Shown here piece after piece: positions 1 to 14,184 of a DNA stretch of 64,000 nucleotides. Each line of letters begins with the position of its first letter. Positions within the stretch are counted from its first letter, which is position 1. The stretch lies in IMG/VR virus record IMGVR_UViG_3300041411_000085, positions 23,004-87,003 of that record, one strand, 5' to 3'. The translations under genes were made by a program, and so were the position numbers. The DNA is from a virus. The notes beneath the pieces are model-generated. The model was given only the letters and a program-made list of their open reading frames with translations, was not told where the DNA came from and searched no databases.

Positions 1-122
1 ACATTTCATTGATGCTCTACAGGAGCTAGAATGTCTAGGAAGGCTTCCAAGGATTAGGCAGAATCTTGAATTTGATCTGCATGAGTTGGAAGTTTATATT
101 GAAATGATGAGGGAGATGAATA

Positions 123-509
123 ATGGGTAATCCATCGTTTACACCAATGAGTCAAGAACAACGAGAGGAAGTACGACTTAAGCGAATTGCAGACCAAGAA
201 TGGGCTAAAGATAATTTAAAAGATGATTTCGCCGATGAGCCTGTGTGGAGAGCACTTGGCTCAGAATATTCTGTGCGATTTCCACAAAGGCATGTTCCGG
301 GAACTGAACTTAAGTATCTGAAGCGTACATGTAAAAAGCTCGGACTAGAAATCAGCGCATTTCTTGAATCAACTGGATTCTCAACTCTTAAGCAGTTTGC
401 AGAAGCTAATAAAACATACCCAAGTTGGGCTTTTGTGGGGTTGATTTTAGAGTTTTACAATGACCATCAAATGAATCAGTACGAGTATCCTCTCAAAATC
501 GATTCATAA
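123..509 (+). CDS. hypothetical phage protein
   Basis: 128-aa ORF with a GGAG RBS upstream; no motif recognised. Confidence 0.7.
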   Translation: MGNPSFTPMSQEQREEVRLKRIADQEWAKDNLKDDFADEPVWRALGSEYSVRFPQRHVPGTELKYLKRTCKKLGLEISAFLESTGFSTLKQFAEANKTYPSWAFVGLILEFYNDHQMNQYEYPLKIDS

Positions 510-562
510 GGCACTTTCACCGAGGATTTTCACTAAAAATAGCTGCGTTCGGTAGATAAAGC

Positions 563-591
563 TTGCATAGTATGTCTGAGGTTTCTAGACT
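563..591 (+). promoter_or_regulatory. sigma70-type promoter
   Basis: TTGCAT-17 bp-TAGACT upstream of the 626-6749 gene run. Confidence 0.6.
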
Positions 592-625
592 CTATTTCAG
601 GGTATAAAACTCCCTACAAACATTT

Positions 626-1093
626 ATGGAGAATATTATGATTAAAAGAATTTTAGCCCTCAGATATGTGTGCAAGAAATATAACCTCAAATGCAAGCTC
701 ATATTCTTTGGTAGCGAAGGCTGGATGAGTAGGAAAGACAGGCTTATTTGTGTAAGCCTGTTCCAAAAGAACTTCTTCCAAGTGTTGTACCATGAAATTG
801 GTCATGAGGTGGCTACAAGGTCTTTGAAATTTGATAACAAATATGCAAAAGCAGCTTTTGGCTCTAGATTGAAATTCAATTACGAAGATGATATGTTTGT
901 AAGACTAGAGGAAGAAGCCAAGGCTAGTAAGTTTTCAATGAGGTTTCTGAAAGTCAAAGATAGGCAATACCTTAAAGAATGTTGGTACACATACACAAGT
1001 TCTGTTGCTAAATGTATAAATGCAAGTGAGCTTGACAGGTACATTACAACCGTTGCAAAATACAGTAAATATTTTGAGGGGAACACAAAATGA
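626..1093 (+). CDS. putative zinc metallopeptidase (HExxH; ImmA/IrrE-like)
   Basis: LYHEIGHE motif plus a downstream EEEAKAS glutamate helix; the start may be the ATG at 638 after GGAG. Confidence 0.55.
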   Translation: MENIMIKRILALRYVCKKYNLKCKLIFFGSEGWMSRKDRLICVSLFQKNFFQVLYHEIGHEVATRSLKFDNKYAKAAFGSRLKFNYEDDMFVRLEEEAKASKFSMRFLKVKDRQYLKECWYTYTSSVAKCINASELDRYITTVAKYSKYFEGNTK

Positions 1094-1269
1094 CTTTGTT
1101 TGTCGTATATCTTATCGTTTCACTTATATTCGTCTACATCAATGCCACAGCCTGTTACATTAGAGGAATAAAATATCCTTGGAGACAAGATATTCCCCTG
1201 TGCCTTATCTGGCCTGTGACAGCACCAATCGGTATCTTAGCTATTATTGCTTCGGAGAGTCGTCCATGA
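1090..1269 (+). CDS. small membrane protein
   Basis: 59-aa ORF read by hand (MTLFVVYLIVSLIFVYINATACY...LCLIWPVTAPIGILAIIAS); ATGA overlap with the upstream stop; two hydrophobic segments. Confidence 0.6.
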   Translation: MTLFVVYLIVSLIFVYINATACYIRGIKYPWRQDIPLCLIWPVTAPIGILAIIASESRP

Positions 1270-1314
1270 CTCAACACAAAGATACATAAAGTGAAACTTA
1301 CTGGAGAGTAAACA

Positions 1315-1497
1315 ATGACCAAACAATATTCCCATGACAGAGAAGTGATCAAAGACTTCATTCGCTGGGCTAGCGATGAGCATAAATGTGCTGTCGTGTG
1401 TTTTCCAGATGAATTCGCAGCTAGTGCTTACGTTAATTATAAGTTCATCAACGTTTCAGAAATATTGGAAGAGTTTATTGAGGGGAGAGGACAATGA
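1315..1497 (+). CDS. hypothetical protein
   Basis: GGAG RBS; coupled to the next ORF. Confidence 0.65.
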   Translation: MTKQYSHDREVIKDFIRWASDEHKCAVVCFPDEFAASAYVNYKFINVSEILEEFIEGRGQ

Positions 1498-1808
1498 TTA
1501 AGTGGATTAAGGGTTTGTTTTCTTTTCAAACAGAGCAAGGGGGTTGGGAGCCTTGGTTTGAAGCCCTTGAGAAAGAAAAGGTACAAACAGATATTCACGG
1601 CCTGCCGTTTGTAAAGAATATCGTTCCTATGCCTAAAGTGAAACCAACAAAGAAGAGTGAATATAATACATTTGAGAATTGCAGGGCTTACAGTTCCGGT
1701 ACAACCGTAGAAGGTCTAAAGCTAGCACTCTCACACTGTACAAAGTATGAAGACAGGATGTTCTTGCAATTTCTTATCAATGTACACTTGAGAAATATGG
1801 GGAAATAA
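1494..1808 (+). CDS. hypothetical protein
   Basis: GAGG RBS; ATGA overlap. Confidence 0.65.
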   Translation: MIKWIKGLFSFQTEQGGWEPWFEALEKEKVQTDIHGLPFVKNIVPMPKVKPTKKSEYNTFENCRAYSSGTTVEGLKLALSHCTKYEDRMFLQFLINVHLRNMGK

Positions 1809-2644
1809 TGAGCATTCAAATGCAAAACCAAACAATCATGTTGAGGAACCAATCAATCAGGGTGTCAATTAAGCCGGGAGCACCAAACAGTGTTCCTCTT
1901 CTGCTTTGTACGGGCATAGGGGCTTCTCTCGAATTGCTATTTCCTTTTGTTGAGGCTATTCACATTGCACAACCAGACTTAGAAATCATTACATTTGATT
2001 ATCCGGGAGTGGGTGGTAGTTCAACACATCTGTTACCTTATCGTTTTAGTGGCCTGTGTAGAACAATCTCAGAAATGTTGGACTTCTTAAACTACGGGCA
2101 AGTATTTGTATTGGGGTTATCATGGGGCGGATTCACCAGTCAGGAATTTGCTTACCAATATCCAAATCGTTGTAAGAAACTAATCCTAGCAGCCACTTGT
2201 GCTGGTGTTACAGCCATTCCTCCAAGTATGAAAGTGCTTAGTTTGATGTCCTCACCTAAACGCTATACAGATCCTGACTATGCAGCTTCGATTGCAGCAG
2301 ATATCTATGGAGGCCACTTTAGGGGAAATAAAGAACTGGCTATTGAACATGCTTCGCGTATGTCACAAAGCAAAGGTGAGTTTAAACATAGTCAGTTGGG
2401 TTATGCCTATCAGCAAGGTGCCTTGATGTGGTGGTCATCATTGTGGTATCTGCACAGTATTAAACAACCAACACTAGTCCTTGCAGGTGATGACGATCCT
2501 CTGATAGACTTGCGGAATATGAAAATATTAGCGAAGCTAATCCCTAATTCTGAGATGCATGTATTTGAGGGCGAAGGTCATCTCTTCCTTCTTACGAGTT
2601 TGGATGAGGTTGTTCCAATTGTTACTAAGTTTTTGGAGGGCTAA
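1808..2644 (+). CDS. phaZ: intracellular poly(3-hydroxyalkanoate) depolymerase (alpha/beta hydrolase)
   Basis: Lipase box GLSWGG, GIGASLEL, DYPGVGGSS, PYRF, RCKKLILAAT, QPTLVLAGDDDPLI and GHLFL are all colinear with Pseudomonas mcl-PHA depolymerase PhaZ as recalled; 278 aa. Confidence 0.88.
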   Translation: MSIQMQNQTIMLRNQSIRVSIKPGAPNSVPLLLCTGIGASLELLFPFVEAIHIAQPDLEIITFDYPGVGGSSTHLLPYRFSGLCRTISEMLDFLNYGQVFVLGLSWGGFTSQEFAYQYPNRCKKLILAATCAGVTAIPPSMKVLSLMSSPKRYTDPDYAASIAADIYGGHFRGNKELAIEHASRMSQSKGEFKHSQLGYAYQQGALMWWSSLWYLHSIKQPTLVLAGDDDPLIDLRNMKILAKLIPNSEMHVFEGEGHLFLLTSLDEVVPIVTKFLEG

Positions 2645-3031
2645 ATGTTAATTGAATATGCTAGAATACTCTCACCCCCAATGTGCAGAAGATATCCAGA
2701 TAAGATATACGTCTACGGTGACAACATGAAAGCCTTCGGTAAAGGTGGACAAGCTATCATCCGTGATGAGCCTAATGCTTTTGGTATTCCAACTAAACGA
2801 TATCCCTCTTGGGATGATTGGGCATTCTTTAGTGACCAACCAGATGAAATTGAAGCTGTAAAGATATCCCTACGTGAATTGTGGAAGGTTGCACGAAACA
2901 AAGTGATTGTATTCCCTGAAGATGGGATCGGTACAGGGAGAGCTAAGATGAAAGAGAAATCTCCTGTTGCTTATAAGATGATGTGTGATATATTGCGGGA
3001 ACATTTTGGTATTGTTAATGGAGGAAAATAA
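2645..3031 (+). CDS. conserved phage protein (YVYGDN...GKGGQA...GIPTK...GIGTG motifs), function unknown
   Basis: The motif pattern resembles a recurrent phage family; begins immediately after the phaZ stop. Confidence 0.65.
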   Translation: MLIEYARILSPPMCRRYPDKIYVYGDNMKAFGKGGQAIIRDEPNAFGIPTKRYPSWDDWAFFSDQPDEIEAVKISLRELWKVARNKVIVFPEDGIGTGRAKMKEKSPVAYKMMCDILREHFGIVNGGK

Positions 3032-3285
3032 TGACAAACCTTGAACGCTGCTCATGTGGAGCTAGGGAGAAAAATAAGTGTAGTAAGGAGAGTGCTCCAA
3101 TGAATGGAGTCCAAAGTGGGAAGATGTGTTTGAAGGATGAAGATACCCTGTTCGTTAACTTTAGAGACACCTTGAATGGTGGTTTCTGTGCTGATATTGA
3201 CTATGAATCACAAGCTTGGCAGAAAGTGCTGGGTGATTGGGAAGGGTTTAAAATTGAGGAGCAGCTATGTATTACCAAGAAGTAG
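3031..3285 (+). CDS. hypothetical Cys-containing protein
   Basis: GGAGG RBS; coupled start. Confidence 0.6.
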   Translation: MTNLERCSCGAREKNKCSKESAPMNGVQSGKMCLKDEDTLFVNFRDTLNGGFCADIDYESQAWQKVLGDWEGFKIEEQLCITKK

Positions 3286-3560
3286 GCTACAAACTACCAC
3301 CAGAATACACAAGCCTTATCTACCTGCACCAGCGTCTAGGTGATATCGATACTGTGGATGCCGCTTGTTATATCTGGAATAGGTTGCACACAGGCGACAC
3401 TCTTCGTATTAATAAAGTTGAAGAAATGCTAGGCACAATTCATCTGACAGGGAAGTGTAGTGACACGGAGGCTGCTTTGAACATTTGCAGATACCTCACG
3501 ACTATCTGTGTTGGTGTTACGTACCAGAAGACAATTATCACTGAGAGTTGGGAGATTTGA
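3267..3560 (+). CDS. hypothetical protein
   Basis: GAGGAG RBS. Confidence 0.6.
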   Translation: MYYQEVGYKLPPEYTSLIYLHQRLGDIDTVDAACYIWNRLHTGDTLRINKVEEMLGTIHLTGKCSDTEAALNICRYLTTICVGVTYQKTIITESWEI

Positions 3561-3805
3561 TGAAATATAAAATGGGTAATAAAGTCTACATCGCTTCCTC
3601 TAAGAAGACAGATGGGACACATAACAGAGGTAAGATCGTAGGTATTGAGCTTTCTTACTTTGGACTTGGGTATCTTACAGAAACTCAGTATTTTAATGAC
3701 TTTGATCATCCAAGATATAAAGTTGCCTATGTTGATTGCTTCACAAATAAAGCTAACTGTCATTGGTACTCGGAGGAAGAGCTTCAGAAGGAGAAACCTG
3801 AATGA
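3560..3805 (+). CDS. hypothetical protein (SH3/KOW-like beta protein)
   Basis: Start moved to the ATG at 3560 (TGATG overlap, GGGAG RBS); KYKMGNKVYI...GKIVGI pattern. Confidence 0.6.
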   Translation: MKYKMGNKVYIASSKKTDGTHNRGKIVGIELSYFGLGYLTETQYFNDFDHPRYKVAYVDCFTNKANCHWYSEEELQKEKPE

Positions 3806-3965
3806 ACCAAACAATTGAAGAACGCATGCAGAATATTGATAATGAACTGAAAGCACTTAGGGAAGAACTAAAAGTAGAACTTTTACCTAAATATCTTTCA
3901 CCAGAACATCAAAAGAGAGTGTTAAAAGCGTTTATGAAAGGTATTGATGACAAGGAAGAAGAGTA

Positions 3966-4463
3966 ATGACTGAACTCCTCACACACGATAACCTGTGTCT
4001 GTTAGCTGAGAAGTTCTTAACTAAGAATGCATTTGGTGTTGTATTCCATGATAAGTTTAAAGCTTATACAAACACAGGTGAACAACCAGACTGTCTTGGA
4101 TTCAGAAGTGGAGTATCTTGTCTGATTGAGTGTAAAACATCTAGGTCTGATTTCTTAGTAGACAAGCGTAAGAAGTTTAGAGTTGATCCGGCACTTGGTA
4201 TGGGTGATTGGAGATTCTTTCTAACACCTACAGGACTTATTAAAGCTGAGGAGCTTCCTGCTGGATGGGGATTGTTAGAGACTGATGGGAAACGGATTAA
4301 GAAAGTATACGGATTCCCTGCAAACACAGGGTGGTTTGATAAACCATTCACCGGTAATAAACAAGCTGAGTGTGATTATATGTATTCTGCCTGTAGGCGT
4401 ATGGTCATACGAGGACACTTGAAAGAGATTTATGATGGTGTTCCTGTAAAGGAGTTTGTATAA
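3966..4463 (+). CDS. PD-(D/E)XK nuclease-fold protein, MmcB-like
   Basis: EQPDCLG...LIECKTSRSDF...ELPAGWGLL motifs. Confidence 0.6.
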   Translation: MTELLTHDNLCLLAEKFLTKNAFGVVFHDKFKAYTNTGEQPDCLGFRSGVSCLIECKTSRSDFLVDKRKKFRVDPALGMGDWRFFLTPTGLIKAEELPAGWGLLETDGKRIKKVYGFPANTGWFDKPFTGNKQAECDYMYSACRRMVIRGHLKEIYDGVPVKEFV

Positions 4464-4638
4464 TGAAACCACTAATCCTTAAAACACCAGAAGGACTGTA
4501 TGTCTGTGAAATACCTATTGAGAGTGAACCAGAAGACGGAGCATCTGATAGAGAATGGTGGATATGGGCAGCAACTGGGGGGACAAGTCCTGTAGAGGCT
4601 TATAATAATTGGCTGAAGGATTGGGAGGAGAGGGTGTG

Positions 4639-4866
4639 ATGTCTGATTTCAAAAGTTGGTACGAAGTAGCTGAATATCTTCTATCAAACAAGTGGAACTC
4701 TATAGACGTAGACAGTACATGGTCATTCACTGAGGACAAGAGCTGGAGTAAGGTGTATCCTCCTGAAAATGCTAGTGACTATGAGCATTATAAGAATATT
4801 GGTGATGCAATAGAAGAGATGATGTATTTCTGTGATGGTGACTTAGGGAGTGTTAGTAAAGAATGA
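4639..4866 (+). CDS. hypothetical acidic protein
   Basis: Start moved to the ATG at 4639 after GGAGAGG. Confidence 0.6.
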   Translation: MSDFKSWYEVAEYLLSNKWNSIDVDSTWSFTEDKSWSKVYPPENASDYEHYKNIGDAIEEMMYFCDGDLGSVSKE

Positions 4867-5039
4867 AAAGTGGAGACGTATATCTTCCAGAATCAGATGA
4901 GTATCTAGAATCAATCGAAGAAGAATATGATTGGTATTGCTGGGAGGAAGAGGATTGGTCCGAGAATAGATGTTTCTATGAGAATGATTTAGAGCATTTG
5001 GAAGAATTACCGAGTAAGGAGAAGATACATGCTAACTAA
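4863..5039 (+). CDS. very acidic 58-aa protein
   Basis: ORF read by hand; ATGA overlap with the upstream stop; 20 D/E versus 4 K/R. Confidence 0.55.
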   Translation: MKSGDVYLPESDEYLESIEEEYDWYCWEEEDWSENRCFYENDLEHLEELPSKEKIHAN

Positions 5040-5562
5040 AGAGGAGCTACAAGCCTTAGAGCAAAGGATTGCTCAGAATGCCAATAAACTGGTGAGTTCT
5101 GCTAAGAAGGTGGAAAGGAAAGACACAAAAGACACAAGAGGTCGTAAACCAAAGCAATTGCACAATAAGCTGCTTCCTGTATTTCAGGACTTGCGGCTTG
5201 AGTTGTTTGAGGATGACGGCAACTCTTGGCCTTTGTGGATTGATGATGTGTTGTCTGGGGTTAGTAGGCTTGATTGGTATAGACAAGGAGAACGAAGTGT
5301 CCCATTGAGTACAGGAAGTCTTAAGAGTATCTTTGAAAGCCTTGAATATATTGACTCTGTATCTATTGCTGACCTACTCTCCCTTGGAGAAAGGCAAGCT
5401 CGTAGGTATATGCAAGCCTCAATCCTCTGTTATAAATACCTTGACACTGGCTATAAAGATGTTAATATTAAAGGTCTGAAATATCCTGCACATCGCCCCG
5501 GTGTTGATAAACTAGTTATTGCTGATTTAGAACGATTAGAGCAATTATTAACTAATAAATAG
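5029..5562 (+). CDS. hypothetical protein, possible HTH DNA-binding
   Basis: AAGGAG RBS; SIADLLSLGERQARRY resembles an HTH; basic RGRKPK patch. Confidence 0.6.
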   Translation: MLTKEELQALEQRIAQNANKLVSSAKKVERKDTKDTRGRKPKQLHNKLLPVFQDLRLELFEDDGNSWPLWIDDVLSGVSRLDWYRQGERSVPLSTGSLKSIFESLEYIDSVSIADLLSLGERQARRYMQASILCYKYLDTGYKDVNIKGLKYPAHRPGVDKLVIADLERLEQLLTNK

Positions 5563-5642
5563 GGTTATTGTGCACGTTTATTTCGGTCGCACTATATTAA
5601 AGAATAGATCAAAAGCATAATTAACCAAGTAGGAGTAACAAA

Positions 5643-6749
5643 ATGGAAGAAGAGTGGAAAGAGATACCCGGTTATCCGGGGTATGAAGCTAGCGATAAAG
5701 GTAATGTAAGACAGTTATCTGGTAAACAAGTGTTCCTCCAGATAACAGGTGAGCCTGAATACCACTATGTAAACATTGTAGATGAGTATGGTAACAGAGT
5801 CCTAAGACGTGCTCATGTCATGGTTGCGAAAGCCTTTCTTGAGAATCCATTGAACCTACCAATGGTTGACCATATTGACAGACAGAGGTTTAATAACAAC
5901 CTTGAAAATCTCCGGTGGGTAACTCGTAAAGATAATGCTAGAAATAAAGTTAATACACTCTTTACTGAATATCAAGGAAAACAAAGGGTCTTGGTTGAGC
6001 TTGTAGAGGAAATATTTGAAGATGATTATCTTGCACCATACCAAGCAATCAGGTACAGAGTATCAACTGGTATGGATTTTGATGCTGCCTTGGCATCTTA
6101 TCTGTACCTTCTAGAGCACGGAAGGTGTAAGATTAAAGTGGACTGGAATAACGAAGAAGTATTCCTCACAGTTCTTTGTAAGGACTTGAGTAAAGATTTC
6201 TTTTATGTGAGACAGAGACTTAGAGATGGTTGGTCTATTTGGAATGCTATTTACGATATTCCACACTCCCACAGTTACAGCTTCGAGGTTATTGACTCAA
6301 AAGGTGTTGGCCACTGGTATCAGAATAATGAAATGTTTGAAAAGACACACCCAACTGCAATTGGAATCTGGAAGTCCTTGTTTAGAGAAGGTAAGACATT
6401 AGATGAAATATTAGCATATGATGGTAAAGACTATTTAAGACGAACTGTAGGTAAGCACACAGGAACTTTAAAAGAGCTGTGTAAGCTTTATGGGAAGACA
6501 GAATCCTCAGTAGAAACTAGAGTAGGCAAAGGCATGTCTTTAGAGGATGCTTTAACCTCCCCTCCTGAAAGGATCAAGAAAGTCACTATTGATGGTGTAT
6601 CAGGGAGCCCTAAATATTGGTATGAGCATTACGGGCTTGTTTACAAGACTGTGAAACATAAGAAAGATAGGTTGAAGTGTTCCTTTGAGGATATCTTGAG
6701 ATACTTTGATGTAGATTTAACTGGTAAAGTTATTTCGTACACAGACTAA
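5643..6749 (+). CDS. NUMOD4-HNH homing endonuclease
   Basis: EEWKEIPGYPGYEASDKGNVR (NUMOD4); AHVMVAKAF...VDHIDRQRFNNNLENLRW (HNH); repeated C-terminal helical DNA-binding units. Confidence 0.88.
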   Translation: MEEEWKEIPGYPGYEASDKGNVRQLSGKQVFLQITGEPEYHYVNIVDEYGNRVLRRAHVMVAKAFLENPLNLPMVDHIDRQRFNNNLENLRWVTRKDNARNKVNTLFTEYQGKQRVLVELVEEIFEDDYLAPYQAIRYRVSTGMDFDAALASYLYLLEHGRCKIKVDWNNEEVFLTVLCKDLSKDFFYVRQRLRDGWSIWNAIYDIPHSHSYSFEVIDSKGVGHWYQNNEMFEKTHPTAIGIWKSLFREGKTLDEILAYDGKDYLRRTVGKHTGTLKELCKLYGKTESSVETRVGKGMSLEDALTSPPERIKKVTIDGVSGSPKYWYEHYGLVYKTVKHKKDRLKCSFEDILRYFDVDLTGKVISYTD

Positions 6750-6770
6750 TTCTAAATTCCCTACAAATTT

Positions 6771-6805
6771 GAGGTCTTGCTTCTATAGAAGACCTCTTTC
6801 TTTTT
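6771..6805 (+). terminator. intrinsic terminator
   Basis: GAGGTCTT/AAGACCTC stem followed by TTTCTTTTT, after the last + strand gene. Confidence 0.75.
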
Positions 6806-7254
6806 GCCCAGAATATGCTGAAAGCCTTATAAACAAAGGGTTCGTACTTCTTAAAACCTTGTCGCTACCGGAGACCGTCTTAACTCGCTGGGACTGTGGC
6901 ACACCAGTGACGTGCCAGAATACAAAATATGTAGCTTCCTATCTATTAGCCTACTAATCATTATCAAGCTGTCTGCTAGTACCCTATCGATACGATCAAT
7001 TGGATGCTACCAGTCACTGCGGTATTCCAAATGGTATTCCAAGCCACTATCACTACTAGACAAATGCCTTTAGATACAACCACTTACCTCTCCGGTTCAA
7101 CTTCCTACTGGTCAACTGAACCGAGACATTGAGCATTATACTGGTCTGCACAACTAGCACACTTCACTAGCTCATGTCAAGGTATTATGAGGATTGTGTG
7201 AAAGGATTGGCTAGTAGGTGGTGGTTAGGATGGGTGTTCAACATGTGGGATGAG

Positions 7255-7467
7255 ATAAAGCAGCGACAAGAGCGTCTGTGCTTAACTACTCACGTAGTTT
7301 CGCCCATACTTACAGATGACTATAAAGTGACTAAAACACTCTTATCGGTCACATTGGAGACTAAGTAGAATAAAGCTTTGACAAGATTTGTCAGTGTTTA
7401 TAAAGTGACTAGAATTGAAGCCGTAGTCACATTTAAGACAGTATAAAGCCGACTAAACAGTCGGCTT
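7255..7467. repeat. cluster of ATAAAG-plus-dyad elements in the non-coding junction
   Basis: ATAAAG at 7255, 7322, 7370, 7400 and 7443, each followed by a GAC...GTC inverted repeat; TATAAAGTGACTA is exact at 7321 and 7399. Confidence 0.7.
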
Positions 7468-7492
7468 AGGATTACCCTGCTAGAATGTTTGT

Positions 7493-7675
7493 TCAGATGC
7501 CTTTATGTGTCCAGTCTTCACCAGCCCGTTTAGCATCTTCCATAGACTGATAGTTAACCACTTCAGGACTAAATCCACACCCTTTGTACCACTTAGACAG
7601 CTGATAAGTGTTGCCTACCACTGTCACTGTAGACCTTCTGAAAGAGTCTTCCCCCGTAGTGTGTGATGTAATCAA
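7493..7675 (-). CDS. hypothetical protein
   Basis: Last ORF of the leftward block; start uncertain. Confidence 0.55.
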   Translation of the reverse strand: MITSHTTGEDSFRRSTVTVVGNTYQLSKWYKGCGFSPEVVNYQSMEDAKRAGEDWTHKGI

Positions 7676-7711
7676 GGTATAGCTCAGACCACTTGTACAT
7701 GATTTACTTCC

Positions 7712-7975
7712 TCAATCTACGTTAACAGACATTTGGAACTGAAGGTTATCAAGAGCTTCTTGTCCTTCATGGTAGTGACAAGCCCTCAAGGACACTTCAG
7801 CATTCATACCTTTACCACCACCTGTACGTTGACCTTGTTCATTAAAGTGTGCCCATTCAACAATGAAAGCCCCAGCCTCTAACATCTCATCAAGCATCTC
7901 GTAGGTTGCATAGTTAGCGAAGTTTTCAGTGTATTCAGCGCCAGTAGCAAGGTCAGTGTAGGTGATGGTTAGCAT
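7712..7975 (-). CDS. hypothetical early protein
   Basis: Directly downstream of the promoter at 8022-8050. Confidence 0.7.
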   Translation of the reverse strand: MLTITYTDLATGAEYTENFANYATYEMLDEMLEAGAFIVEWAHFNEQGQRTGGGKGMNAEVSLRACHYHEGQEALDNLQFQMSVNVD

Positions 7976-8021
7976 GTGGGTATTCTCTGTTTAGGAAGGC
8001 TTTCTGCCTTTCGATGTGTTC

Positions 8022-8050
8022 ATTCTAATACTGTTTGATTGTTGTGTAAA
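8022..8050 (-). promoter_or_regulatory. sigma70-type early promoter
   Basis: TTTACA-17-TAGAAT on the - strand. Confidence 0.7.
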
Positions 8051-8147
8051 GCCTTTTCTTAGCTCTTTTCAAAAGAATTTATAGCTGCTTTCCTATCCCC
8101 CACTCTCTCTACTTGTCTCGTGTCTTTACCTACTCACCATAGAGATT

Positions 8148-8186
8148 ATTCTACAGGCAAACAAAAGCCAGCACAAGAGGCTGGCT
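8148..8186 (-). promoter_or_regulatory. fused terminator/promoter
   Basis: AGCCAGC/GCTGGCT hairpin plus TTTGTTT, overlapping TTGTGC-17-TAGAAT. Confidence 0.55.
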
Positions 8187-8239
8187 AGGTTATTTCTTCT
8201 CTTACATTGTGTCTTTAGACACTCATCCGACGTTTACTA

Positions 8240-8428
8240 TTAAAGCGCTTCAAAGCGAATTGGTGTATACAAAGCATAATCATCAGACATCATCGTAAAG
8301 CTCTCATACATACCAGCATGAGCTGTATAGTATTGTGTATCCACACGGCCCCACAAGACCAGTTGAATTCCATTAATAACTTTAATGAAAGGGGCAATGA
8401 TTGGAATAGGTCTTGGAGGAGTTCTCAT
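8240..8428 (-). CDS. hypothetical protein
   Basis: ORF in the early block. Confidence 0.5.
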   Translation of the reverse strand: MRTPPRPIPIIAPFIKVINGIQLVLWGRVDTQYYTAHAGMYESFTMMSDDYALYTPIRFEAL

Positions 8429-8602
8429 TATAATTACTCACTGTTCAATCTTTAATAAACAACAATCTGCAAGCTCTTAGCATAGCTAGAGGCTGGATAA
8501 CCTTCCAATTCATCTTTCCATGTTTTGTGGTATGTAGGCTGAGGCTTGGATGAGTTACCTTTAAGGAGAGCTTTGTAGAGGACTATCAGAGAGATGATCA
8601 TT

Positions 8603-8845
8603 TTATTCTCCAAACAAATCATTAAGAAGGTCATCATCAGAGAGTGTATTGTCTGCTTCTGACTGATAAACGTCAATCCCTTTAGACTTAAGAAATTCAG
8701 CCTCTTGTGCTATTTCTTTCTCAATCTGTTTAATCCATACAGAACGCAGTTCGATTTCAGATTGACTCTTAGCGACAGCTAAGTATCCTTTCTCACTACT
8801 GAGGCGAATCATGAGAGCTGCGTAGTGAGAAGTATTGTAAGTCAT
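8603..8845 (-). CDS. hypothetical early protein
   Basis: Downstream of the promoter at 8879-8907. Confidence 0.7.
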   Translation of the reverse strand: MTYNTSHYAALMIRLSSEKGYLAVAKSQSEIELRSVWIKQIEKEIAQEAEFLKSKGIDVYQSEADNTLSDDDLLNDLFGE

Positions 8846-8878
8846 GATCTTTACTCTTCTGTTTGTTTGGTATGGCTC

Positions 8879-8907
8879 ATTATGAGGCTATCCACCTACC
8901 TGGTCAA
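8879..8907 (-). promoter_or_regulatory. sigma70-type early promoter
   Basis: TTGACC-17-CATAAT. Confidence 0.7.
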
Positions 8908-8930
8908 CAACTATATTCAGTTATTTTAGG

Positions 8931-8959
8931 CAAAAGAAAAGGAGCCCTGTGAGGCTCCT
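8931..8959 (-). terminator. intrinsic terminator
   Basis: AGGAGCC/GGCTCCT stem plus TTTCTTTT on the - strand. Confidence 0.65.
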
Positions 8960-8978
8960 GGAATGTAACCTTAACTCT

Positions 8979-9170
8979 TTACTTCACCATCTGTTTAGCC
9001 GTCCCAACAGCATCTTCCAAATCATCTGTGTGATATGTGGCTTCTTTCTGGAACTTATTATCAATGTAATACCACACTTGATACTCTTCCCATTCATCAT
9101 TCCATTTGATGATAGCTTTCTTGTTGTCATTCTTATATGTGGTTGGGAATGTTTTCGATGGTTTGGTCAT
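8979..9170 (-). CDS. hypothetical protein
   Basis: AGGA RBS; ends before the terminator. Confidence 0.65.
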   Translation of the reverse strand: MTKPSKTFPTTYKNDNKKAIIKWNDEWEEYQVWYYIDNKFQKEATYHTDDLEDAVGTAKQMVK

Positions 9171-10098
9171 GATGCTGATTCCTGGTGTATTCGTCTTGGG
9201 TTAGGTCCATTGTGAGGCTTTCACCATCTTGTGTCAACATTTCTTGTGAGATATTTTTAAGGATGTGAGCTACGGCATCCACGGTCCAGGCATTCCCAAT
9301 GCTTTTGTACCGTTCTGATGTACGAATACAATCTGTGTAGTTATCTGGCAATGTCTGTAAACGTTCGTATTCAACAGGCGTCAATCGTGTAATTTGATCA
9401 CCACGAGTGACATAGTTGCTATTCCAAGAACCATCAGAACGAGCTGTCAAGCAATTAGCTTTAATTGGATTCAATACAGCATAACGCTTATCAAAACACT
9501 GTTGCCCTTTTTCACTAGTGACCCAACGAGCACGACCCGGTGTAAGGATAGATAGTTCTGGAATACCTGGTTGTAAGATGTCTTTAAGATTAATACCTAA
9601 ATCCTGTGGTTGTTCAATGTTAGGAATGTTGGTCCAATACAAACGATCACGTTTTTGTGCACTGACCAAAGAGGAGTTAATACGAATAGGTTCAACTCCT
9701 AGTACTTTACTAATTTCATCAATAGCTTTTTTATTACCACTAACATTCTCAAGCATCCACCACTTTGGGTTTAGTTCATTTTTAATACGAACGTATTCCC
9801 AAAACAAACCACTCTTACCCTCAAGACCTGTGCCATCCCCCAGGTTTGAAATCGATTGGCAAGGTGTGCCTCCAACCAGCAAGTCAATTGCCCCGAGTTT
9901 GGATGTGTCTAGTGCACACATATCGCCAACTTGTTTAATATTAGGCCAATTGGACTGGCTAACTTTAATTGCATGCTTGTCGATCTCGGATGCGTAGTAA
10001 TTATTTACGATAATACCTGCACGTTGCAATGCAACAGCAGCACAAGAGATTCCATCACAAACTGACAAAACATTAATACCTTTATTCATAACACCCAC
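9133..10098 (-). CDS. DNA (cytosine-5)-methyltransferase
   Basis: Motifs I (SVCDGIS), IV (GGTPCQ), VI (LENV), VIII (QKRDRLYW), IX (RLQTLP) and X (YKSIGNAW). Confidence 0.9.
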   Translation of the reverse strand: MGVMNKGINVLSVCDGISCAAVALQRAGIIVNNYYASEIDKHAIKVSQSNWPNIKQVGDMCALDTSKLGAIDLLVGGTPCQSISNLGDGTGLEGKSGLFWEYVRIKNELNPKWWMLENVSGNKKAIDEISKVLGVEPIRINSSLVSAQKRDRLYWTNIPNIEQPQDLGINLKDILQPGIPELSILTPGRARWVTSEKGQQCFDKRYAVLNPIKANCLTARSDGSWNSNYVTRGDQITRLTPVEYERLQTLPDNYTDCIRTSERYKSIGNAWTVDAVAHILKNISQEMLTQDGESLTMDLTQDEYTRNQHHDQTIENIPNHI

Positions 10099-10116
10099 TT
10101 ATAAAGCTCCTTACGT

Positions 10117-10143
10117 TAAAAGCCGCTTTACGCGGCGTTTTTG
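10117..10143. terminator. probable bidirectional terminator
   Basis: AAAA-GCCGC-TTTAC-GCGGC-GTTTTT. Confidence 0.55.
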
Positions 10144-10166
10144 GTTTGTGTTTAAAACTTATTAAT

Positions 10167-10412
10167 TTAGACTTTCCAGAAGTCACTCTTGTTAGCCTCA
10201 TCAGCACAAACCTGAGCAGCCTTAGCAACAAGCTTAGCCACTTGATTCACAACGTTAGGCACTTCCAAACCAAAGGCTTCAGTAGTCAGCTCAACAGTTT
10301 GCCCATTCACCTTTGCCACAAGCTTCAAAGCATCTTCCAAAGCAATCTGTACGAAAGCTGGGGAGTTCATGAAAGACATTGCTGTGTATGTGGTTTTCAC
10401 TGAAGTGGTCAT
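10167..10412 (-). CDS. hypothetical early protein
   Basis: Downstream of the promoter at 10447-10475. Confidence 0.7.
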   Translation of the reverse strand: MTTSVKTTYTAMSFMNSPAFVQIALEDALKLVAKVNGQTVELTTEAFGLEVPNVVNQVAKLVAKAAQVCADEANKSDFWKV

Positions 10413-10446
10413 GATTGAAGTCTCTGTATTTGGTTGGTGTAGGAGA

Positions 10447-10475
10447 ATTATGGGCTCCTTTCAGAGCCCTGTCAA
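10447..10475 (-). promoter_or_regulatory. sigma70-type early promoter
   Basis: TTGACA-gggctctgaaaggagcc-CATAAT. Confidence 0.8.
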
Positions 10476-10482
10476 CATCTGA

Positions 10483-10749
10483 TTAGAAAGTAATTACAGA
10501 TGTTGTGTAGGCTTCACTGACTTCACCATCGCCCCAATCCATTTCAGGGTGAAACTCTTCCGTCACTACAGCCCCCGGAGTAACCTTAACGAAGTCTAGG
10601 GCTGCTGCTTTATGGTTCTTGCCGCTGATGATTACAAGATTATCATCATGACCAAAGTGAACAGCTCGTGCAACCATGATGTGGATATCAGCACCGTGGA
10701 TTTTCTTAGCAGAGGCATTAATTGCTTTGATTTCGTTGGCGATTGACAT
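10483..10749 (-). CDS. hypothetical early protein
   Basis: AGGAAG RBS; downstream of the promoter at 10796-10824. Confidence 0.7.
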   Translation of the reverse strand: MSIANEIKAINASAKKIHGADIHIMVARAVHFGHDDNLVIISGKNHKAAALDFVKVTPGAVVTEEFHPEMDWGDGEVSEAYTTSVITF

Positions 10750-10795
10750 GGTGTTCTTCCTAGTGGTTGGAAGCGTTCTTGCTTCCTATGAGTCC

Positions 10796-10824
10796 ATTCT
10801 AGAGAGATTTAGAAGGTACGTCAA
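10796..10824 (-). promoter_or_regulatory. sigma70-type early promoter
   Basis: TTGACG-17-TAGAAT. Confidence 0.75.
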
Positions 10825-10981
10825 CAGGAGTTTGTAAAAATTCTATAAATTCTTTTTCAGGTGTGTCTGTATGATCAGACCAATCGGCGTAAAAGTGTGG
10901 TATCTCAATTGGATTGCACCAACGACCTCTAACCTTGTCGGGGCTTATCATGAATCGAAAACCTTGATCTTTGAGTGTCAT
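10799..10981 (-). CDS. hypothetical protein
   Basis: Coupled ORF. Confidence 0.6.
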   Translation of the reverse strand: MTLKDQGFRFMISPDKVRGRWCNPIEIPHFYADWSDHTDTPEKEFIEFLQTPVDVPSKSL

Positions 10982-11241
10982 TAGGGATAATCCACATATG
11001 TGATTTTCTTGGTTTTCTTCTTTTGTTTCTTGACAATCTGAGCTGCATCGTATTCAGCTTGCCTGATGATCCATTGATCAATGTGGCGCTGAGCTTCCTC
11101 GATTGTGCCAAACTCTGCCAATGTCTCAAGGTCAACGTGCATATTTTGCCAACCCCACAAGAAGAAACAGTTATATTGACATTGATAAGACACACTATCA
11201 CAGTCTGTTGTTATCTTAATTCGTGTTCTATCCACCTTCAA
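10981..11241 (-). CDS. hypothetical protein
   Basis: AAGGAG RBS; coupled. Confidence 0.6.
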   Translation of the reverse strand: MKVDRTRIKITTDCDSVSYQCQYNCFFLWGWQNMHVDLETLAEFGTIEEAQRHIDQWIIRQAEYDAAQIVKKQKKKTKKITYVDYP

Positions 11242-11549
11242 TCTCCTTGCCCTATATTCCCACTATAATAACCACCCCCACTACCATTCACTGTCCTCTT
11301 GCTCCAGATGTCGTCAGCGGAGTGCTCAGAGAGGGTGTTTTCGATAGAGTCCCATGACTTGAACTTGTCATTCCATTTGTAGAGCTTATTTGTCTTAATG
11401 AAGACTTTGTAGTTATCATTCAACAGGTACGAACCTTTGCTCTTATCCTCAAAGTAAGCTTGTCCATCTTGAACAGAAATGCATTCAAGAACAACTGATT
11501 CATAGTAATTGACTTGGAGCTTGTATTTGGTGCCTTCCTTGTAGGTCAT
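11238..11549 (-). CDS. hypothetical protein
   Basis: GGAG RBS. Confidence 0.65.
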   Translation of the reverse strand: MTYKEGTKYKLQVNYYESVVLECISVQDGQAYFEDKSKGSYLLNDNYKVFIKTNKLYKWNDKFKSWDSIENTLSEHSADDIWSKRTVNGSGGGYYSGNIGQGD

Positions 11550-11552
11550 AAC

Positions 11553-11756
11553 TTAATACTCCGTTTGAAGCATCTTGGCAACAGTGGTCATTCGATCTAC
11601 ACAATACTCTAGTGTTGCTGCTACCAATAGCTGATTGGTTTCAGAGTCTCGAATCTCAGCGTAAAGAGTTCGTGCATGGCCGTTCTTACCATAACGAATG
11701 TTTGTAATCACAGCTTTAATGTAGGCATCAGTCCAGCTCATCACTCTTGCTCCCAA
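11553..11756 (-). CDS. hypothetical protein
   Basis: ORF in the run; start uncertain. Confidence 0.55.
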   Translation of the reverse strand: MGARVMSWTDAYIKAVITNIRYGKNGHARTLYAEIRDSETNQLLVAATLEYCVDRMTTVAKMLQTEY

Positions 11757-11886
11757 TTCCGCTTAAGATTTCTCTCATTACTATAGCCTCGCTTCTTGTC
11801 TTTACCGCCTGTGTCATAGTGGTCTGCACACTTACGTTTAGAAGATTTGCGTTCATATTTCTGGAATGATTCTTGTGTGTAGGTTT

Positions 11887-12117
11887 TCATTTGATTGAGT
11901 CTCTGATAATTGGTGCTAGTTTACAAATGCTTTCAGCAAGCTGATCTTTAGTTTCATGCGCTGACCATAGCTGTACAACTCTATTTAGTAAATTCTCAAG
12001 CTCAATGTTTCGTTCTTGTGTAGCTTCAAATGCAGCATTTGCGAGCATCCACTTATCTTCTATGAGAACCTTTTGGCGGCCAACAGGAAGACTGAGCCAC
12101 CATTCATTAAAAGTCAT
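11887..12117 (-). CDS. hypothetical protein
   Basis: GGAG RBS. Confidence 0.65.
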   Translation of the reverse strand: MTFNEWWLSLPVGRQKVLIEDKWMLANAAFEATQERNIELENLLNRVVQLWSAHETKDQLAESICKLAPIIRDSIK

Positions 12118-12256
12118 TTCAACATCTCCAATTCAATCATCTGTTTTGTATTATATATTGGAACACACGTCCATTGCCCATTGTCACGACAGAGTTTAGC
12201 ATGGGTTCCTTGGGAAAGGAAGTTGTAGGCTTGTTGGAATGCTGATTGGTAGTTGT

Positions 12257-12457
12257 TCATTTCTCTTTCCTTGCTTTGTCCCAACCTTGTAGACGTTCTA
12301 GTTTAGATCGAACATCGTTCAGCACAAGCCAATACCCTGCTGGACACACACTCAAGCTCTTATAAATTTGCTTGTAATAAGCTAAGCAGATTTTAAGCTC
12401 TTCGTCTGTCAAGTAATCAGCAGTTTTGGTGAATTTATCAAGAATTCGTTTGTCCAT
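12257..12457 (-). CDS. hypothetical protein
   Basis: Follows the upstream stop directly. Confidence 0.6.
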   Translation of the reverse strand: MDKRILDKFTKTADYLTDEELKICLAYYKQIYKSLSVCPAGYWLVLNDVRSKLERLQGWDKARKEK

Positions 12458-12458
12458 C

Positions 12459-13049: not shown

Positions 13050-13086
13050 GATGCACCTGCCTGATATTCCTGTTCCTGGTGTGATA

Positions 13087-13122
13087 ATTCTAACCCAATA
13101 GAAAAAGGCCGTCAAGCGGCCT
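13087..13122 (-). promoter_or_regulatory. fused terminator/promoter
   Basis: AGGCCG-cttga-CGGCCT-TTTTCT hairpin; TTGACG (in the loop)-17-TAGAAT. Confidence 0.75.
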
Positions 13123-13144
13123 GTATGGTTTATTTTTCATCTGT

Positions 13145-13933: not shown

Positions 13934-13936
13934 TGC

Positions 13937-14107: not shown

Positions 14108-14155
14108 GTCTGTTGCTCCTGTTCGTTTAGAAGCTTTCTGCTTCCTATGTATTAG

Positions 14156-14184
14156 AGTTTAAGGTAGATAGAAAGCCCTGTCAA
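14156..14184 (-). promoter_or_regulatory. sigma70-type early promoter
   Basis: TTGACA-17-TAAACT. Confidence 0.75.

What the first reader, a model, noticed from the sequence alone, without database searches (positions are those of the whole stretch)
1808..2644. Phage-encoded PHA depolymerase: possible hijack of the host carbon store
Seen: a full-length 278-aa alpha/beta hydrolase with an intact Ser (GLSWG), Asp (GDDDP) and His (GHLF) triad. It is translationally coupled to phage genes on both sides and has AT-rich, phage-like codons. Established: this motif set matches Pseudomonas intracellular mcl-PHA depolymerase PhaZ, normally in the phaC1-phaZ-phaC2 operon; no other pha gene is in this window. 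Inference: the phage mobilises PHA granules during infection to supply carbon and energy, for example in starved or stationary hosts. The ameliorated codon usage suggests long residence rather than recent capture.
Basis: partly seen in the sequence, partly recalled or inferred. Interest (0 to 1): 0.85.

Follow-up and report, generated by a model that had tools for sequence, protein, structure and literature searches.

The report
Phage-carried PHA storage-polymer depolymerase gene
An 87-kb uncultured rhizosphere phage carries an intact, selectively maintained copy of the enzyme that Pseudomonas uses to break down its polyester (PHA) carbon store, which suggests, but does not show, that the phage taps that store during infection.

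Summary
Window 1808-2644 (+) is an intact 278-aa alpha/beta hydrolase, butted against phage genes on both sides, with the composition of the phage. It passes NCBIfam's equivalog model for mcl-PHA depolymerase (TIGR02240, 323.6 bits, cut-off 250.6). It is 52-55% identical to Pseudomonas PhaZ and sits in one well-supported clade with it (99/99).

The carrier is a real myovirus, 99% complete, from a rhizosphere metagenome. It has no PhaC, phasin or acyl-CoA synthetase.

The triad (Ser105/Asp230/His258) and a lid are kept. dN/dS is 0.04-0.14.

New here:
- The gene is accessory. Only 4 of 19 near-complete relatives found through the capsid protein carry it, and one with an identical capsid protein lacks it.
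- This copy has Thr where PhaZKT has Asn35, a residue whose mutation abolished activity in PhaZKT (PMC12504323).

PHA hydrolysis, expression and the host (probably Pseudomonas) are inferred, not shown. I found no paper on phage mcl-PhaZ. This scan has already noted the same thing on other DNA: 22 findings in at least 18 genomes.

The parts
1808..2644 (+). phaZ-like CDS, 278 aa, Pseudomonas-type intracellular mcl-PHA depolymerase homologue
   Evidence: ORF. TIGR02240 323.6 bits against a cut-off of 250.6. Pfam Abhydrolase_1, 3.5e-30. PHROG 789 esterase/lipase. AF2 model pLDDT 95.5, pTM 0.93.
1910..1912 (+). Thr35 codon in the CTGIG loop. It corresponds to Asn35 of the FNGIG loop (34-38) of PhaZKT.
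   Evidence: Alignment to a P. putida-group PhaZ that has FNGIG at 34-38. Thr in 2 of 57 viral loci and in 10 of 120 metagenome homologues. A passage of PMC12504323 says an Asn-35 mutation abolished activity.
2120..2122 (+). Ser105 codon (GLSWG), nucleophile. It corresponds to PhaZKT Ser102.
   Evidence: Mapping. Ser in 57 of 57 viral loci, 120 of 120 metagenome homologues and 13 of 13 lineage rows.
2213..2410 (+). Lid (cap) region, residues about 136-201, all helical. It corresponds to the PhaZKT lid 133-192 and carries a 7-residue insertion.
   Evidence: AF2 helices 141-206 lie between strands 122-128 and 222-227. Mapping, and identity of 26/60 in the lid against 116/205 in the core. Lid limits taken from PMC12504323.
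2495..2497 (+). Asp230 codon (GDDDP). It corresponds to PhaZKT Asp221.
   Evidence: 57 of 57 viral loci. (120 of 120). Invariant in A2, 124 rows.
2579..2581 (+). His258 codon (GHLF). It corresponds to PhaZKT His248.
   Evidence: 56 of 57; the one miss is a gap in a row cut by its contig end. (120 of 120). Invariant in A2.
1494..1808 (+). Upstream 104-aa ORF of unknown function. Its stop overlaps the phaZ start by 1 nt. It is a variable element.
   Evidence: No Pfam or PHROG match. Contigs in runs X1 and X4 join 1488 to 1809 without it. It is absent upstream of phaZ in L091, L092, L094 and L095, where the 1315-1497 homologue abuts phaZ.
2645..3031 (+). Downstream 128-aa gene, DUF7831 / PHROG 2072. 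It starts directly after the phaZ stop.
   Evidence: It follows phaZ in L087, L092 and L095 only.
123..6749 (+). Run of same-strand, mostly small genes of unknown function, with an HNH endonuclease at 5643-6749. phaZ sits in this mosaic, early-type region.
   Evidence: Only patchy similarity to the same region of relatives whose capsid protein is 94-100% identical. That this is an 'early' region is my inference from gene size and position.

Best explanation
The gene encodes a cytoplasmic serine esterase of the Pseudomonas PhaZ type. Read as an auxiliary metabolic gene, it would work as follows. It is made from the phage's block of small early-type genes. It binds the host's medium-chain-length PHA granules through its helical lid and cuts the polyester with a Ser105-Asp230-His258 triad. 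This releases (R)-3-hydroxyalkanoic acids. The phage has no acyl-CoA synthetase or beta-oxidation genes, so host enzymes must activate and oxidise the monomers. That would turn an otherwise locked carbon store into acetyl-CoA, reducing power and ATP for phage replication. Such a supply would matter most in carbon-rich but nutrient-limited rhizosphere pseudomonads, which are loaded with PHA but grow slowly.

Shown here: family membership, intact catalytic residues and lid, a confident fold, residence in a real phage, purifying selection, and absence of partner pha genes.

Inferred: PHA as the substrate, timing of expression, Pseudomonas as host, and energy or carbon supply as the benefit.
For: Family:
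- TIGR02240 equivalog, 323.6 bits against a cut-off of 250.6.
- In three Pseudomonas genomes, paralogous hydrolases score at most 87 bits on the same model.
- All 80 listed cellular matches are Pseudomonas-type PhaZ at 52-55% identity, including P. oleovorans and the P. putida group.
- The careful ML tree joins 24 viral rows with Pseudomonas PhaZ, apart from 10 other family members (99/99).

Active site and lid:
- Ser, Asp and His align to PhaZKT S102, D221 and H248. They are kept in 57/57, 57/57 and 56/57 viral loci and in 120/120 metagenome homologues.
- A helical lid is present. PhaZKT needs its lid, by the abstract and passages of PMC12504323.
- The model has pLDDT 95.5.

Selection: dN/dS was 0.04-0.14 in the 8 of 9 pairs that could be computed.

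Phage residence:
-.
- The gene stands without PhaC_N in 0 of 50 viral records, 23 of them at least 90% complete and 14 with terminal repeats.
- In 3 of 3 Pseudomonas genomes it lies between two PhaC genes.

Recurrence: 59 viral contigs hold a relative, with GC from 0.39 to 0.60 and sizes from 5 to 307 kb.

Host hints:
- The best cultured matches of the DNA polymerase (55-56%) and capsid protein (38-41%) are phages of P. putida and P. plecoglossicida.
- 228 of 276 tail-fibre hits are Pseudomonas phages.
- The runs that hold the stretch are labelled rhizosphere metagenome.

Analogy: Bdellovibrio uses its own depolymerase on the PHA of P. putida prey (passages of PMC4834554).
Against: - No assay, no expression data and no identified host.
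- The score is about half that of true Pseudomonas PhaZ (323.6 against 606-619 bits).
- The lid is the least conserved part (26/60 identical against 116/205 in the core) and carries a 7-residue insertion.
- Asn35 of PhaZKT, whose mutation abolished activity (passage of PMC12504323), is Thr here. Against this, Thr recurs in 10 of 120 homologues between 59 and 94% identity. The window and its nearest relative L087 (91% identical) still show dN/dS 0.11. Thr is found in 2 of the 57 viral loci.
- The YYWQLF hinge reads YAYQQG.
- The gene is dispensable. 15 of 19 near-complete capsid-matched relatives lack it, including one whose capsid protein is 100% identical.
- Phage GC is 0.41, against 0.62-0.65 for Pseudomonas loci. 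A 35-kb stretch of P. putida phage phiPMW is 0.45, so this gap is not unprecedented.
Confidence: 0.6

Rival explanations
1. Same fold and ancestry, different substrate. The phage copy has drifted into a general carboxylesterase or lipase that acts on some other host ester (lipid, acylated envelope component or small metabolite) and does not touch PHA.
For: - The bit score is half that of Pseudomonas PhaZ.
- The lid, which sets substrate specificity in PhaZKT, is the most diverged part and has an insertion.
- Position 35 is Thr, not Asn.
- In PhaZKT a single lid-hinge change (S184F) raised esterase activity and nearly abolished depolymerase activity (abstract of PMC12504323). The equivalent residue here is Gln, and it varies widely in the viral copies.
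- PHROG 789 and RefSeq call the relatives 'esterase/lipase'.
- The best solved structures are metagenomic esterases (TM 0.84).
Against: - The protein is over the curated equivalog cut-off.
- It forms a clade with Pseudomonas PhaZ that excludes all other 50%-identity representatives but one.
- The lid is retained at full length, and the FNGIG-type loop is kept apart from its first two residues.
- No mcl-PhaZ structure appeared among the solved chains, so esterase top hits are expected.
Confidence: 0.17
2. The enzyme does degrade PHA, but the benefit is not fuel. Granules are removed because they hinder virion assembly or release. Alternatively, the released 3-hydroxyalkanoates or freed granule proteins change host physiology in the phage's favour.
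For: - The phage has no gene for using the monomers (no AMP-binding enzyme).
- The gene is accessory and is swapped as a module, as expected for a conditional helper.
- With mcl-PHA-loaded P. putida prey, Bdellovibrio progeny number was reported to be independent of PHA (passage of PMC4834554). A yield benefit therefore cannot be assumed.
Against: Nothing here separates this reading from the fuel reading; both need the same enzymology. Host beta-oxidation of PhaZ products is the established route (passage of PMC4834554).
Confidence: 0.15
3. An inert passenger, or an assembly or contamination artefact: a host gene picked up recently or joined to phage DNA by mis-assembly.
For: The record is a metagenome assembly with no terminal repeats. 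The gene is missing in most close relatives.
Against: - Composition equals the phage's.
- At most 55% identity to any of the listed cellular copies.
- dN/dS 0.04-0.14.
- The same slot is occupied in 10 other viral contigs of the lineage.
- Contigs of an independent assembly bridge both junctions without a difference.
- 14 phage genomes with terminal repeats carry a relative.
Confidence: 0.02

Closest known systems
PhaZKT, the intracellular mcl-PHA depolymerase of Pseudomonas putida KT2440/KT2442 (NCBIfam TIGR02240; PMC12504323, abstract and passages read)
   Same: - Alpha/beta hydrolase core with a helical lid.
- The triad aligns residue for residue (S102/D221/H248 to S105/D230/H258).
- 52-55% identity to Pseudomonas PhaZ.
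- Same clade in the tree.
- No N-terminal signal-like segment; the first 22 residues are strands of the fold.

   Different: - Stands alone, not between phaC1 and phaC2.
- GC 0.42, not about 0.62-0.65.
- Lacks the C-terminal tail (PhaZKT residues 266-283).
- A 3-residue and a 7-residue insertion.
- CTGIG for FNGIG (N35T) and YAYQQG for YYWQLF.
- Half the model score.
- Activity untested.
PhaZ-like genes of other uncultured phages (IMG/VR contigs L087-L143) and of the cultured Ralstonia jumbo phages RP12 and RP31
   Same: Family members carried without phaC in phage genomes of many sizes (48-kb, 85-93-kb, about 100-kb and 228-307-kb classes). RP12 scores 295.9 bits, over the cut-off. It is 45% identical to the window protein.
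   Different: The window copy belongs to one sub-clade (100/98) of the roughly 0.40-GC, 81-93-kb myovirus lineage. RP12/RP31 fall outside the Pseudomonas-type clade. Their host is recalled, not checked here, to store short-chain PHB. Their gene is annotated only as hypothetical or esterase/lipase.
[quoted passage not shown]
   Same: A host-derived gene of storage-polyester metabolism on viral DNA, read as a metabolic helper.
   Different: The first is a prophage candidate called a polyhydroxybutyrate depolymerase. The second set are synthesis genes, and 'depolymerase' and 'phaZ' occur 0 times in that paper's main text. Neither describes a Pseudomonas-type mcl-PhaZ in virulent-type tailed phages.
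PhaZBd of Bdellovibrio bacteriovorus HD100 (PMC4834554, passages read)
   Same: A parasite of Gram-negative cells brings its own mcl-PHA depolymerase and degrades the PHA of P. putida prey.
   Different: An extracellular-type enzyme of a bacterial predator. It is an analogy of strategy only; no sequence comparison was made here.

Membership tests
Intracellular mcl-PHA depolymerase PhaZ (NCBIfam TIGR02240, equivalog) | Whole-protein score over the curated cut-off of the family model | tested here: met
   323.6 bits against 250.6; 323.3 on the genome. For scale: Pseudomonas PhaZ 606-619 bits, and other hydrolases of the same genomes at most 87 bits.
Intracellular mcl-PHA depolymerase PhaZ (NCBIfam TIGR02240, equivalog) | Ser-Asp-His triad at the positions of PhaZKT S102/D221/H248 | tested here: met
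   S105, D230 and H258 align to them. Positions of the triad taken from PMC12504323.
Intracellular mcl-PHA depolymerase PhaZ (NCBIfam TIGR02240, equivalog) | Alpha/beta-hydrolase core carrying a helical lid (PhaZKT 133-192), which is essential for depolymerase activity | tested here: met
   The AF2 model (pLDDT 95.5) has helices 141-206 inserted between core strands. The lid aligns at 26/60 identity with one 7-residue insertion.
Intracellular mcl-PHA depolymerase PhaZ (NCBIfam TIGR02240, equivalog) | Groups with experimentally studied Pseudomonas PhaZ rather than with other alpha/beta hydrolases | tested here: met
   A clade of 31 rows (99/99) holds the window, 23 viral rows, 6 Pseudomonas rows and 1 representative, apart from 10 other family rows. 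The same clade of 70 rows appears in a 131-row FastTree.
Intracellular mcl-PHA depolymerase PhaZ (NCBIfam TIGR02240, equivalog) | FNGIG loop with Asn35 and YYWQLF hinge, both reported as required in PhaZKT | tested here: not met
   The window reads CTGIG (Thr35) and YAYQQG. Asn is kept in 55 of 57 viral loci and 110 of 120 metagenome homologues. These are features of the model enzyme, not of the NCBIfam definition, so they lower confidence in activity rather than in ancestry.
Intracellular mcl-PHA depolymerase PhaZ (NCBIfam TIGR02240, equivalog) | Hydrolysis of mcl-PHA granules to 3-hydroxyalkanoates | not testable with these tools
   Needs a recombinant enzyme assay.
Pseudomonas pha operon (phaC1-phaZ-phaC2) | phaZ flanked by two PHA synthase genes, with phasins elsewhere in the genome | tested here: not met
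   PhaC_N was found in 0 of 50 viral records and not in the window's genome. Phasin was found in 0 of 4 phage records. The flanking arrangement was seen in 3 of 3 Pseudomonas genomes.
Viral auxiliary metabolic gene (AMG) | A metabolic gene of cellular type inside a bona fide viral genome, flanked by viral genes, not at a contig end, and kept by selection | tested here: met
   (virus, 99% complete). (phage flanks, junctions bridged). (dN/dS 0.04-0.14).
Viral auxiliary metabolic gene (AMG) | Expression during infection and an effect on host metabolism | not testable with these tools
   No listed run that holds the stretch is on record as RNA. There is no cultured phage-host pair for this lineage.

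The most novel reading that the evidence does not exclude
Phage PhaZ is not a scatter of recent thefts. It is an old gene pool maintained by phages and traded as a module among unrelated Pseudomonas-type phages. The intracellular mcl-PHA depolymerase of Pseudomonas, which PMC12504323 calls an apparently genus-specific trait, may itself branch from within that viral diversity. If so, the host's own depolymerase could be of phage origin. With the outgroup root, Pseudomonas PhaZ is one tight branch (100/100) nested among much more diverse viral branches. The deciding node has only 87/70 support, and an AU test does not reject viral monophyly (p 0.373).
Probability: 0.12. Interest if true: 0.8.

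Novelty: new variant of a known kind. Interest (0 to 1): 0.6.

Why it matters
PHA can make up a large share of the dry mass of nutrient-limited pseudomonads (general knowledge, not checked here). If phages open that store, the storage state of a cell, and not only its growth rate, would set phage yield in soil and rhizosphere. Infection would also release or burn carbon that the cell had set aside. This would add storage-polymer mobilisation to the known classes of viral auxiliary metabolism.

It is directly testable in the P. putida KT2440 system, for which phaZ mutants and PHA assays exist (PMC12504323, PMC4834554).

The phage copies are also a ready-made panel of natural lid variants of an enzyme that is being engineered for bioplastic recycling (PMC12504323).

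Tried and rejected
Searches that gave nothing useful:
- Megablast of window 1-8000 against cultured phages found no match.
- The first genome-contig scan, with exact peptide words, found no relative. The second, with alignment A1, gave the Pseudomonas loci.
- A class-wide sample of 400 genomes had 4 over the TIGR02240 cut-off, but no taxon names were shown, so it did not widen the named cellular set.
- BFVD fold search returned only generic alpha/beta hydrolases, mostly of giant viruses.
- PDB sequence and fold searches showed no mcl-PhaZ structure, only esterases and related hydrolases.

Context around the gene:
- Promoter-like and terminator-like sites in 1-8000 were no more frequent than in shuffles (15 against 20.4; 5 against 4.6). 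I therefore claim no private promoter or terminator for phaZ.
- No tRNA or tmRNA gene in the window or the whole record. No terminal repeat of 50-200 nt in the record.

Expression and other runs:
- No RNA holder was listed for window 1-10000.
- Runs X2 and X4 gave no or almost no cover over 1870-2937 while covering parts of the flanks. No contig joins across that gap, so this says nothing about phaZ-less strains there.

Host:
- A DNA search of window 1-20000 in 401 Pseudomonas-genus genomes, made in the hope of spacer-like or prophage matches, gave only matches of 25-122 nt. See Noticed in passing for the one recurrent site.

Rejected readings:
- Secreted enzyme. By eye there is no signal-like N-terminus, and residues 6-22 are core strands in the model.
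- Lysis esterase. The gene is not in the structural or lysis block but among small genes of the 1-6.7-kb block.

Tools and files not available:
The genomic context of the 120 listed metagenome proteins was therefore not examined. I infer only from their contig lengths that many are phage-borne.
- Supplementary files of the papers were not opened. Those of PMC13317609 and PMC12013262 (AMG tables) could hold depolymerase entries that I did not see.
- The metagenome-contig scan, complex prediction and the protein-atlas search were not used.

Rows dropped:
- searched 50 of the 59 viral loci. Nine short contigs were left out: L108, L115, L116, L119, L120, L121, L123, L138 and L141.
- could not search L164 (not held). 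Four of its 28 records (via L089, L091, L095, L140) were added because they were already known to carry phaZ. Without them the count is 4 of 19 near-complete records.
- The trees used 56 of 73 representatives (those of 255-330 aa), and a hand-picked 41 rows.
Full report
**What is there**

Window 1808-2644 (+) is an open frame of 278 codons with an ATG start. Its product has GLSWG (Ser105), GDDDP (Asp230) and GHLF (His258). The stop of the preceding 104-codon ORF shares one base with the start (TAATG). The next gene's ATG follows the stop directly, behind a GGAGG.

Gene GC is 0.422 and GC3 is 0.369. Both lie inside the spread of 162 greedily called ORFs of the genome, whose means are 0.403 (sd 0.029) and 0.375 (sd 0.065). 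Pseudomonas phaZ loci are 0.62-0.65 GC.

**The carrier**

The window is bases 23004-87003 of an 87,003-base IMG/VR virus record that CheckV rates 99% complete; no end repeats were found. PHROG matches show a tailed myovirus with its own replication genes: tail sheath, baseplate wedge, tape measure, tail fibre, major head protein, DNA polymerase, primase/helicase, exonuclease and ribonucleotide reductase. It has no tRNA genes.

The four public runs that hold parts of window 1-10000 are all labelled rhizosphere metagenome. One of them is probably the source. In that run's independent Logan assembly, contigs without a single difference bridge both junctions of phaZ (1281-1843 and 1814-2836). A co-occurring variant joins 1488 to 1809 and so lacks the upstream 104-codon ORF. 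Mis-assembly is therefore not a serious option.

**Family**

- Pfam sees only the general fold (Abhydrolase_1, 3.5e-30). PHROGs says 'esterase/lipase'.
- NCBIfam's equivalog model for poly(3-hydroxyalkanoate) depolymerase, TIGR02240, matches over residues 8-277 at 323.6 bits, above its curated cut-off of 250.6. The next family scores 84.6 bits.
- For scale, PhaZ of three Pseudomonas genomes scores 613-619 bits, and every other hydrolase of those genomes scores at most 87. A fourth PhaZ, in the class sample, scores 606.7.
- The model went over its cut-off in none of 14 control genomes.
- A pattern scan of one genome per species returned 592 relatives. The best 80 are all Pseudomonas-type PhaZ at 52-55% identity, among them P. 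oleovorans, P. entomophila, P. mosselii and P. plecoglossicida.

The phage protein is thus a diverged but clear member of the family.

**Functional residues**

A 2025 study of the model enzyme PhaZKT gives the following (PMC12504323; abstract and passages read):
- the triad Ser102/Asp221/His248;
- a lid at 133-192;
- a loop FNGIG (34-38) and a hinge YYWQLF (190-195), whose deletions abolish activity;
- loss of activity after mutation of Asn35, citing earlier work;
- a lid-hinge change, S184F, that raised esterase activity but nearly abolished depolymerase activity.

P. putida-group PhaZ from my loci has exactly these motifs at these positions. Aligned to it:
- The window protein has Ser105, Asp230 and His258 at the triad positions.
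- It has a full-length lid with one 7-residue insertion.
- It has a 3-residue insertion after the first helix and lacks the C-terminal tail.
- Identity is 116/205 in the core and 26/60 in the lid.
- The loop reads CTGIG, so Asn35 is Thr. The hinge reads YAYQQG.

Thr35 is rare but recurrent. It is found in 2 of 57 viral loci and in 10 of 120 metagenome homologues spanning 59-94% identity to the window. The window and its nearest relative L087 still show dN/dS 0.11. I read this as a tolerated variant, but it remains the main sequence-level caveat for this copy.

An AlphaFold2 model built on 124 sequences is confident (pLDDT 95.5, pTM 0.93). It shows the core strands with a helical cap at 141-206. 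The nearest solved structures are metagenomic esterases (TM 0.84, 27-28% identity). No mcl-PhaZ structure appeared.

**Context in cells and in phages**

In three of three Pseudomonas genomes, PhaZ lies between two PhaC genes. The phage has no PhaC_N, no phasin (PF05597) and no AMP-binding enzyme.

A profile-guided scan of IMG/VR found 59 viral contigs with a relative. Their GC ranges from 0.39 to 0.60 and their lengths from 5 to 307 kb. Of the 50 that I searched whole, none has PhaC_N; 23 are at least 90% complete and 14 have direct terminal repeats.

Ten of the 59 (L087-L095, L140; GC 0.39-0.40) share flanking genes with the window and are the same phage lineage. Two more (L131, L143; about 104 kb) share two neighbours in another order.

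Among cultured phages, only the Ralstonia jumbo phages RP12 and RP31 have a relative, at 45% identity. It is annotated as hypothetical or esterase/lipase, and RP12's copy scores 295.9 bits on TIGR02240.

**Phylogeny**

In a library of 1.84 billion representatives at 50% identity, the best match is 54% identical and the next is 48%.

A 131-row FastTree gave a clade of 70 rows (support 100). It contains the window, 56 of the 59 viral loci, 12 Pseudomonas PhaZ and that one 54% representative. None of the other 55 representatives falls inside it.

A careful IQ-TREE run on 41 chosen rows gave:
- the same clade (31 rows, 99/99);
- Pseudomonas monophyletic (100/100);
- the window's lineage monophyletic (100/98);
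- with the outgroup root, Pseudomonas nested among viral branches, at a node with only 87/70 support.

An AU test does not reject a tree in which all 24 viral rows form one side (log-likelihood difference 0.79, p 0.373). The order of events, whether one capture, several captures or transfer towards Pseudomonas, is therefore open. What is clear is that the viral copies are much more diverse than the Pseudomonas ones and are not recent copies of any sampled host gene.

**Selection and turnover**

Nei-Gojobori dN/dS was 0.04-0.14 in the 8 of 9 pairs inside the lineage that could be computed. The ninth pair was saturated at synonymous sites.

The gene is nevertheless accessory. The window's capsid protein finds 45 viral contigs. 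Of the 19 records reached this way that are at least 90% complete, 4 carry a TIGR02240 match. With the four records I added because they were known carriers, the count is 8 of 23.

One phage whose capsid protein is 100% identical lacks phaZ (G454). Another with a 100% identical capsid protein (G409) has a PhaZ only 63% identical to the window's.

The surrounding 7 kb matches these relatives only in patches. Between shared anchor genes they carry other small ORFs. phaZ therefore lives in a mosaic block of small genes that is exchanged as modules. That this block is an early, host-takeover region is my inference from gene size and position. The promoter and terminator scan gave nothing above chance.

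**Host**

The host is not identified. Four hints point to Pseudomonas or close kin:
- The nearest cellular PhaZ is from Pseudomonas.
- The best cultured matches of the DNA polymerase (54.5-55.8%) and the capsid protein (38-41%) are phiPMW (host P. putida PpG1, genus Plaisancevirus) and vB_PpS_SYP (host P. plecoglossicida).
- 228 of 276 records hit by the tail-fibre protein are Pseudomonas phages, although only its N-terminal third matches.
- The habitat is rhizosphere.

The GC gap (0.41 against more than 0.6) is large. However, a 35-kb stretch of phiPMW is 0.45.

**Mechanism proposed and rivals**

Most likely (0.6): an active PhaZ-type depolymerase made during infection that cuts host mcl-PHA granules, with host enzymes feeding the monomers to beta-oxidation.

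Rivals:
- An esterase whose substrate has shifted (0.17). This is favoured by the diverged lid, Thr35 and the halved score.
- True PHA hydrolysis whose benefit is something other than fuel (0.15).
- A passenger or artefact (0.02).

**Novelty**

Four full-text searches found no paper on a Pseudomonas-type mcl-PHA depolymerase in phages. The search terms were:
- depolymerase + polyhydroxyalkanoate + auxiliary metabolic + phage;
- phaZ + AMG + viral;
- 'PHA depolymerase' + phage;
- polyhydroxyalkanoate + bacteriophage + granules + infection + Pseudomonas putida.

Within this scan the same kind of gene has already been noted: 22 findings in at least 18 genomes hold the search words, and the follow-ups listed reach the same reading. 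I saw these notes only after my own family, context and selection results. They agree with mine and did not change them.

Specific to this report are the carriage rate within the lineage, the module swapping against an identical capsid protein, the Thr35 variant mapped on the 2025 PhaZKT data, and the strain-level junction variant.

**Verdict**

This is a real, intact, selectively maintained phage copy of the Pseudomonas PHA depolymerase, and a plausible but unproven auxiliary metabolic gene. It is a new variant of a known kind. Interest 0.6.

Noticed in passing
window 7021-7046: A tandem GGTATTCCAA x2 lies in a non-coding stretch. It matches Pseudomonas-genus genomes exactly over 25-26 nt in 10 of 401 searched, and at 89% over 37 nt in 2 more. 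One of the ten, G842, is flagged unpublished; the claim does not rest on it. In the two loci I looked at, the match lies about 100 nt downstream of the tmRNA gene and about 30 nt upstream of a 424-aa ORF. By eye that ORF reads like a P4-type integrase; no family scan was run. A third, inverted copy of the motif follows there. The motif is not enriched elsewhere in the window (8 against 4.3 expected). It may be a protein-binding site shared with islands integrated at ssrA, and it is a weak hint of a Pseudomonas host.
   Followed up: partly
window 62853-63920 (capsid gene) compared with 1-7000: Relatives whose capsid protein is 100% identical differ completely in the 7-kb block of small genes. 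G454 has no phaZ. G409 has a PhaZ only 63% identical. Structural and early modules of this lineage recombine freely.
   Followed up: partly
window 1488-1809: In the probable source run (X1), and in a run of another study (X4), contigs join 1488 to 1809 with 6 other letters between. This variant lacks the 104-codon ORF upstream of phaZ and has depth similar to the main form in X1.
   Followed up: no
window 2645-3031: The gene directly downstream of phaZ belongs to DUF7831 (1.3e-30) and PHROG 2072, function unknown. It follows phaZ in only 3 of the 10 lineage loci.
   Followed up: no
window 5643-6749: A 368-aa HNH endonuclease (PHROG 59 and others) closes the block of small genes. Related copies occur near phaZ in L090 and L140.
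   Followed up: no
L142 (IMG/VR record of 279,845 b, the length of Ralstonia phage RP12): The cultured jumbo phages RP12 and RP31 carry a TIGR02240-positive gene (295.9 bits) annotated only as hypothetical or esterase/lipase.
   Followed up: partly
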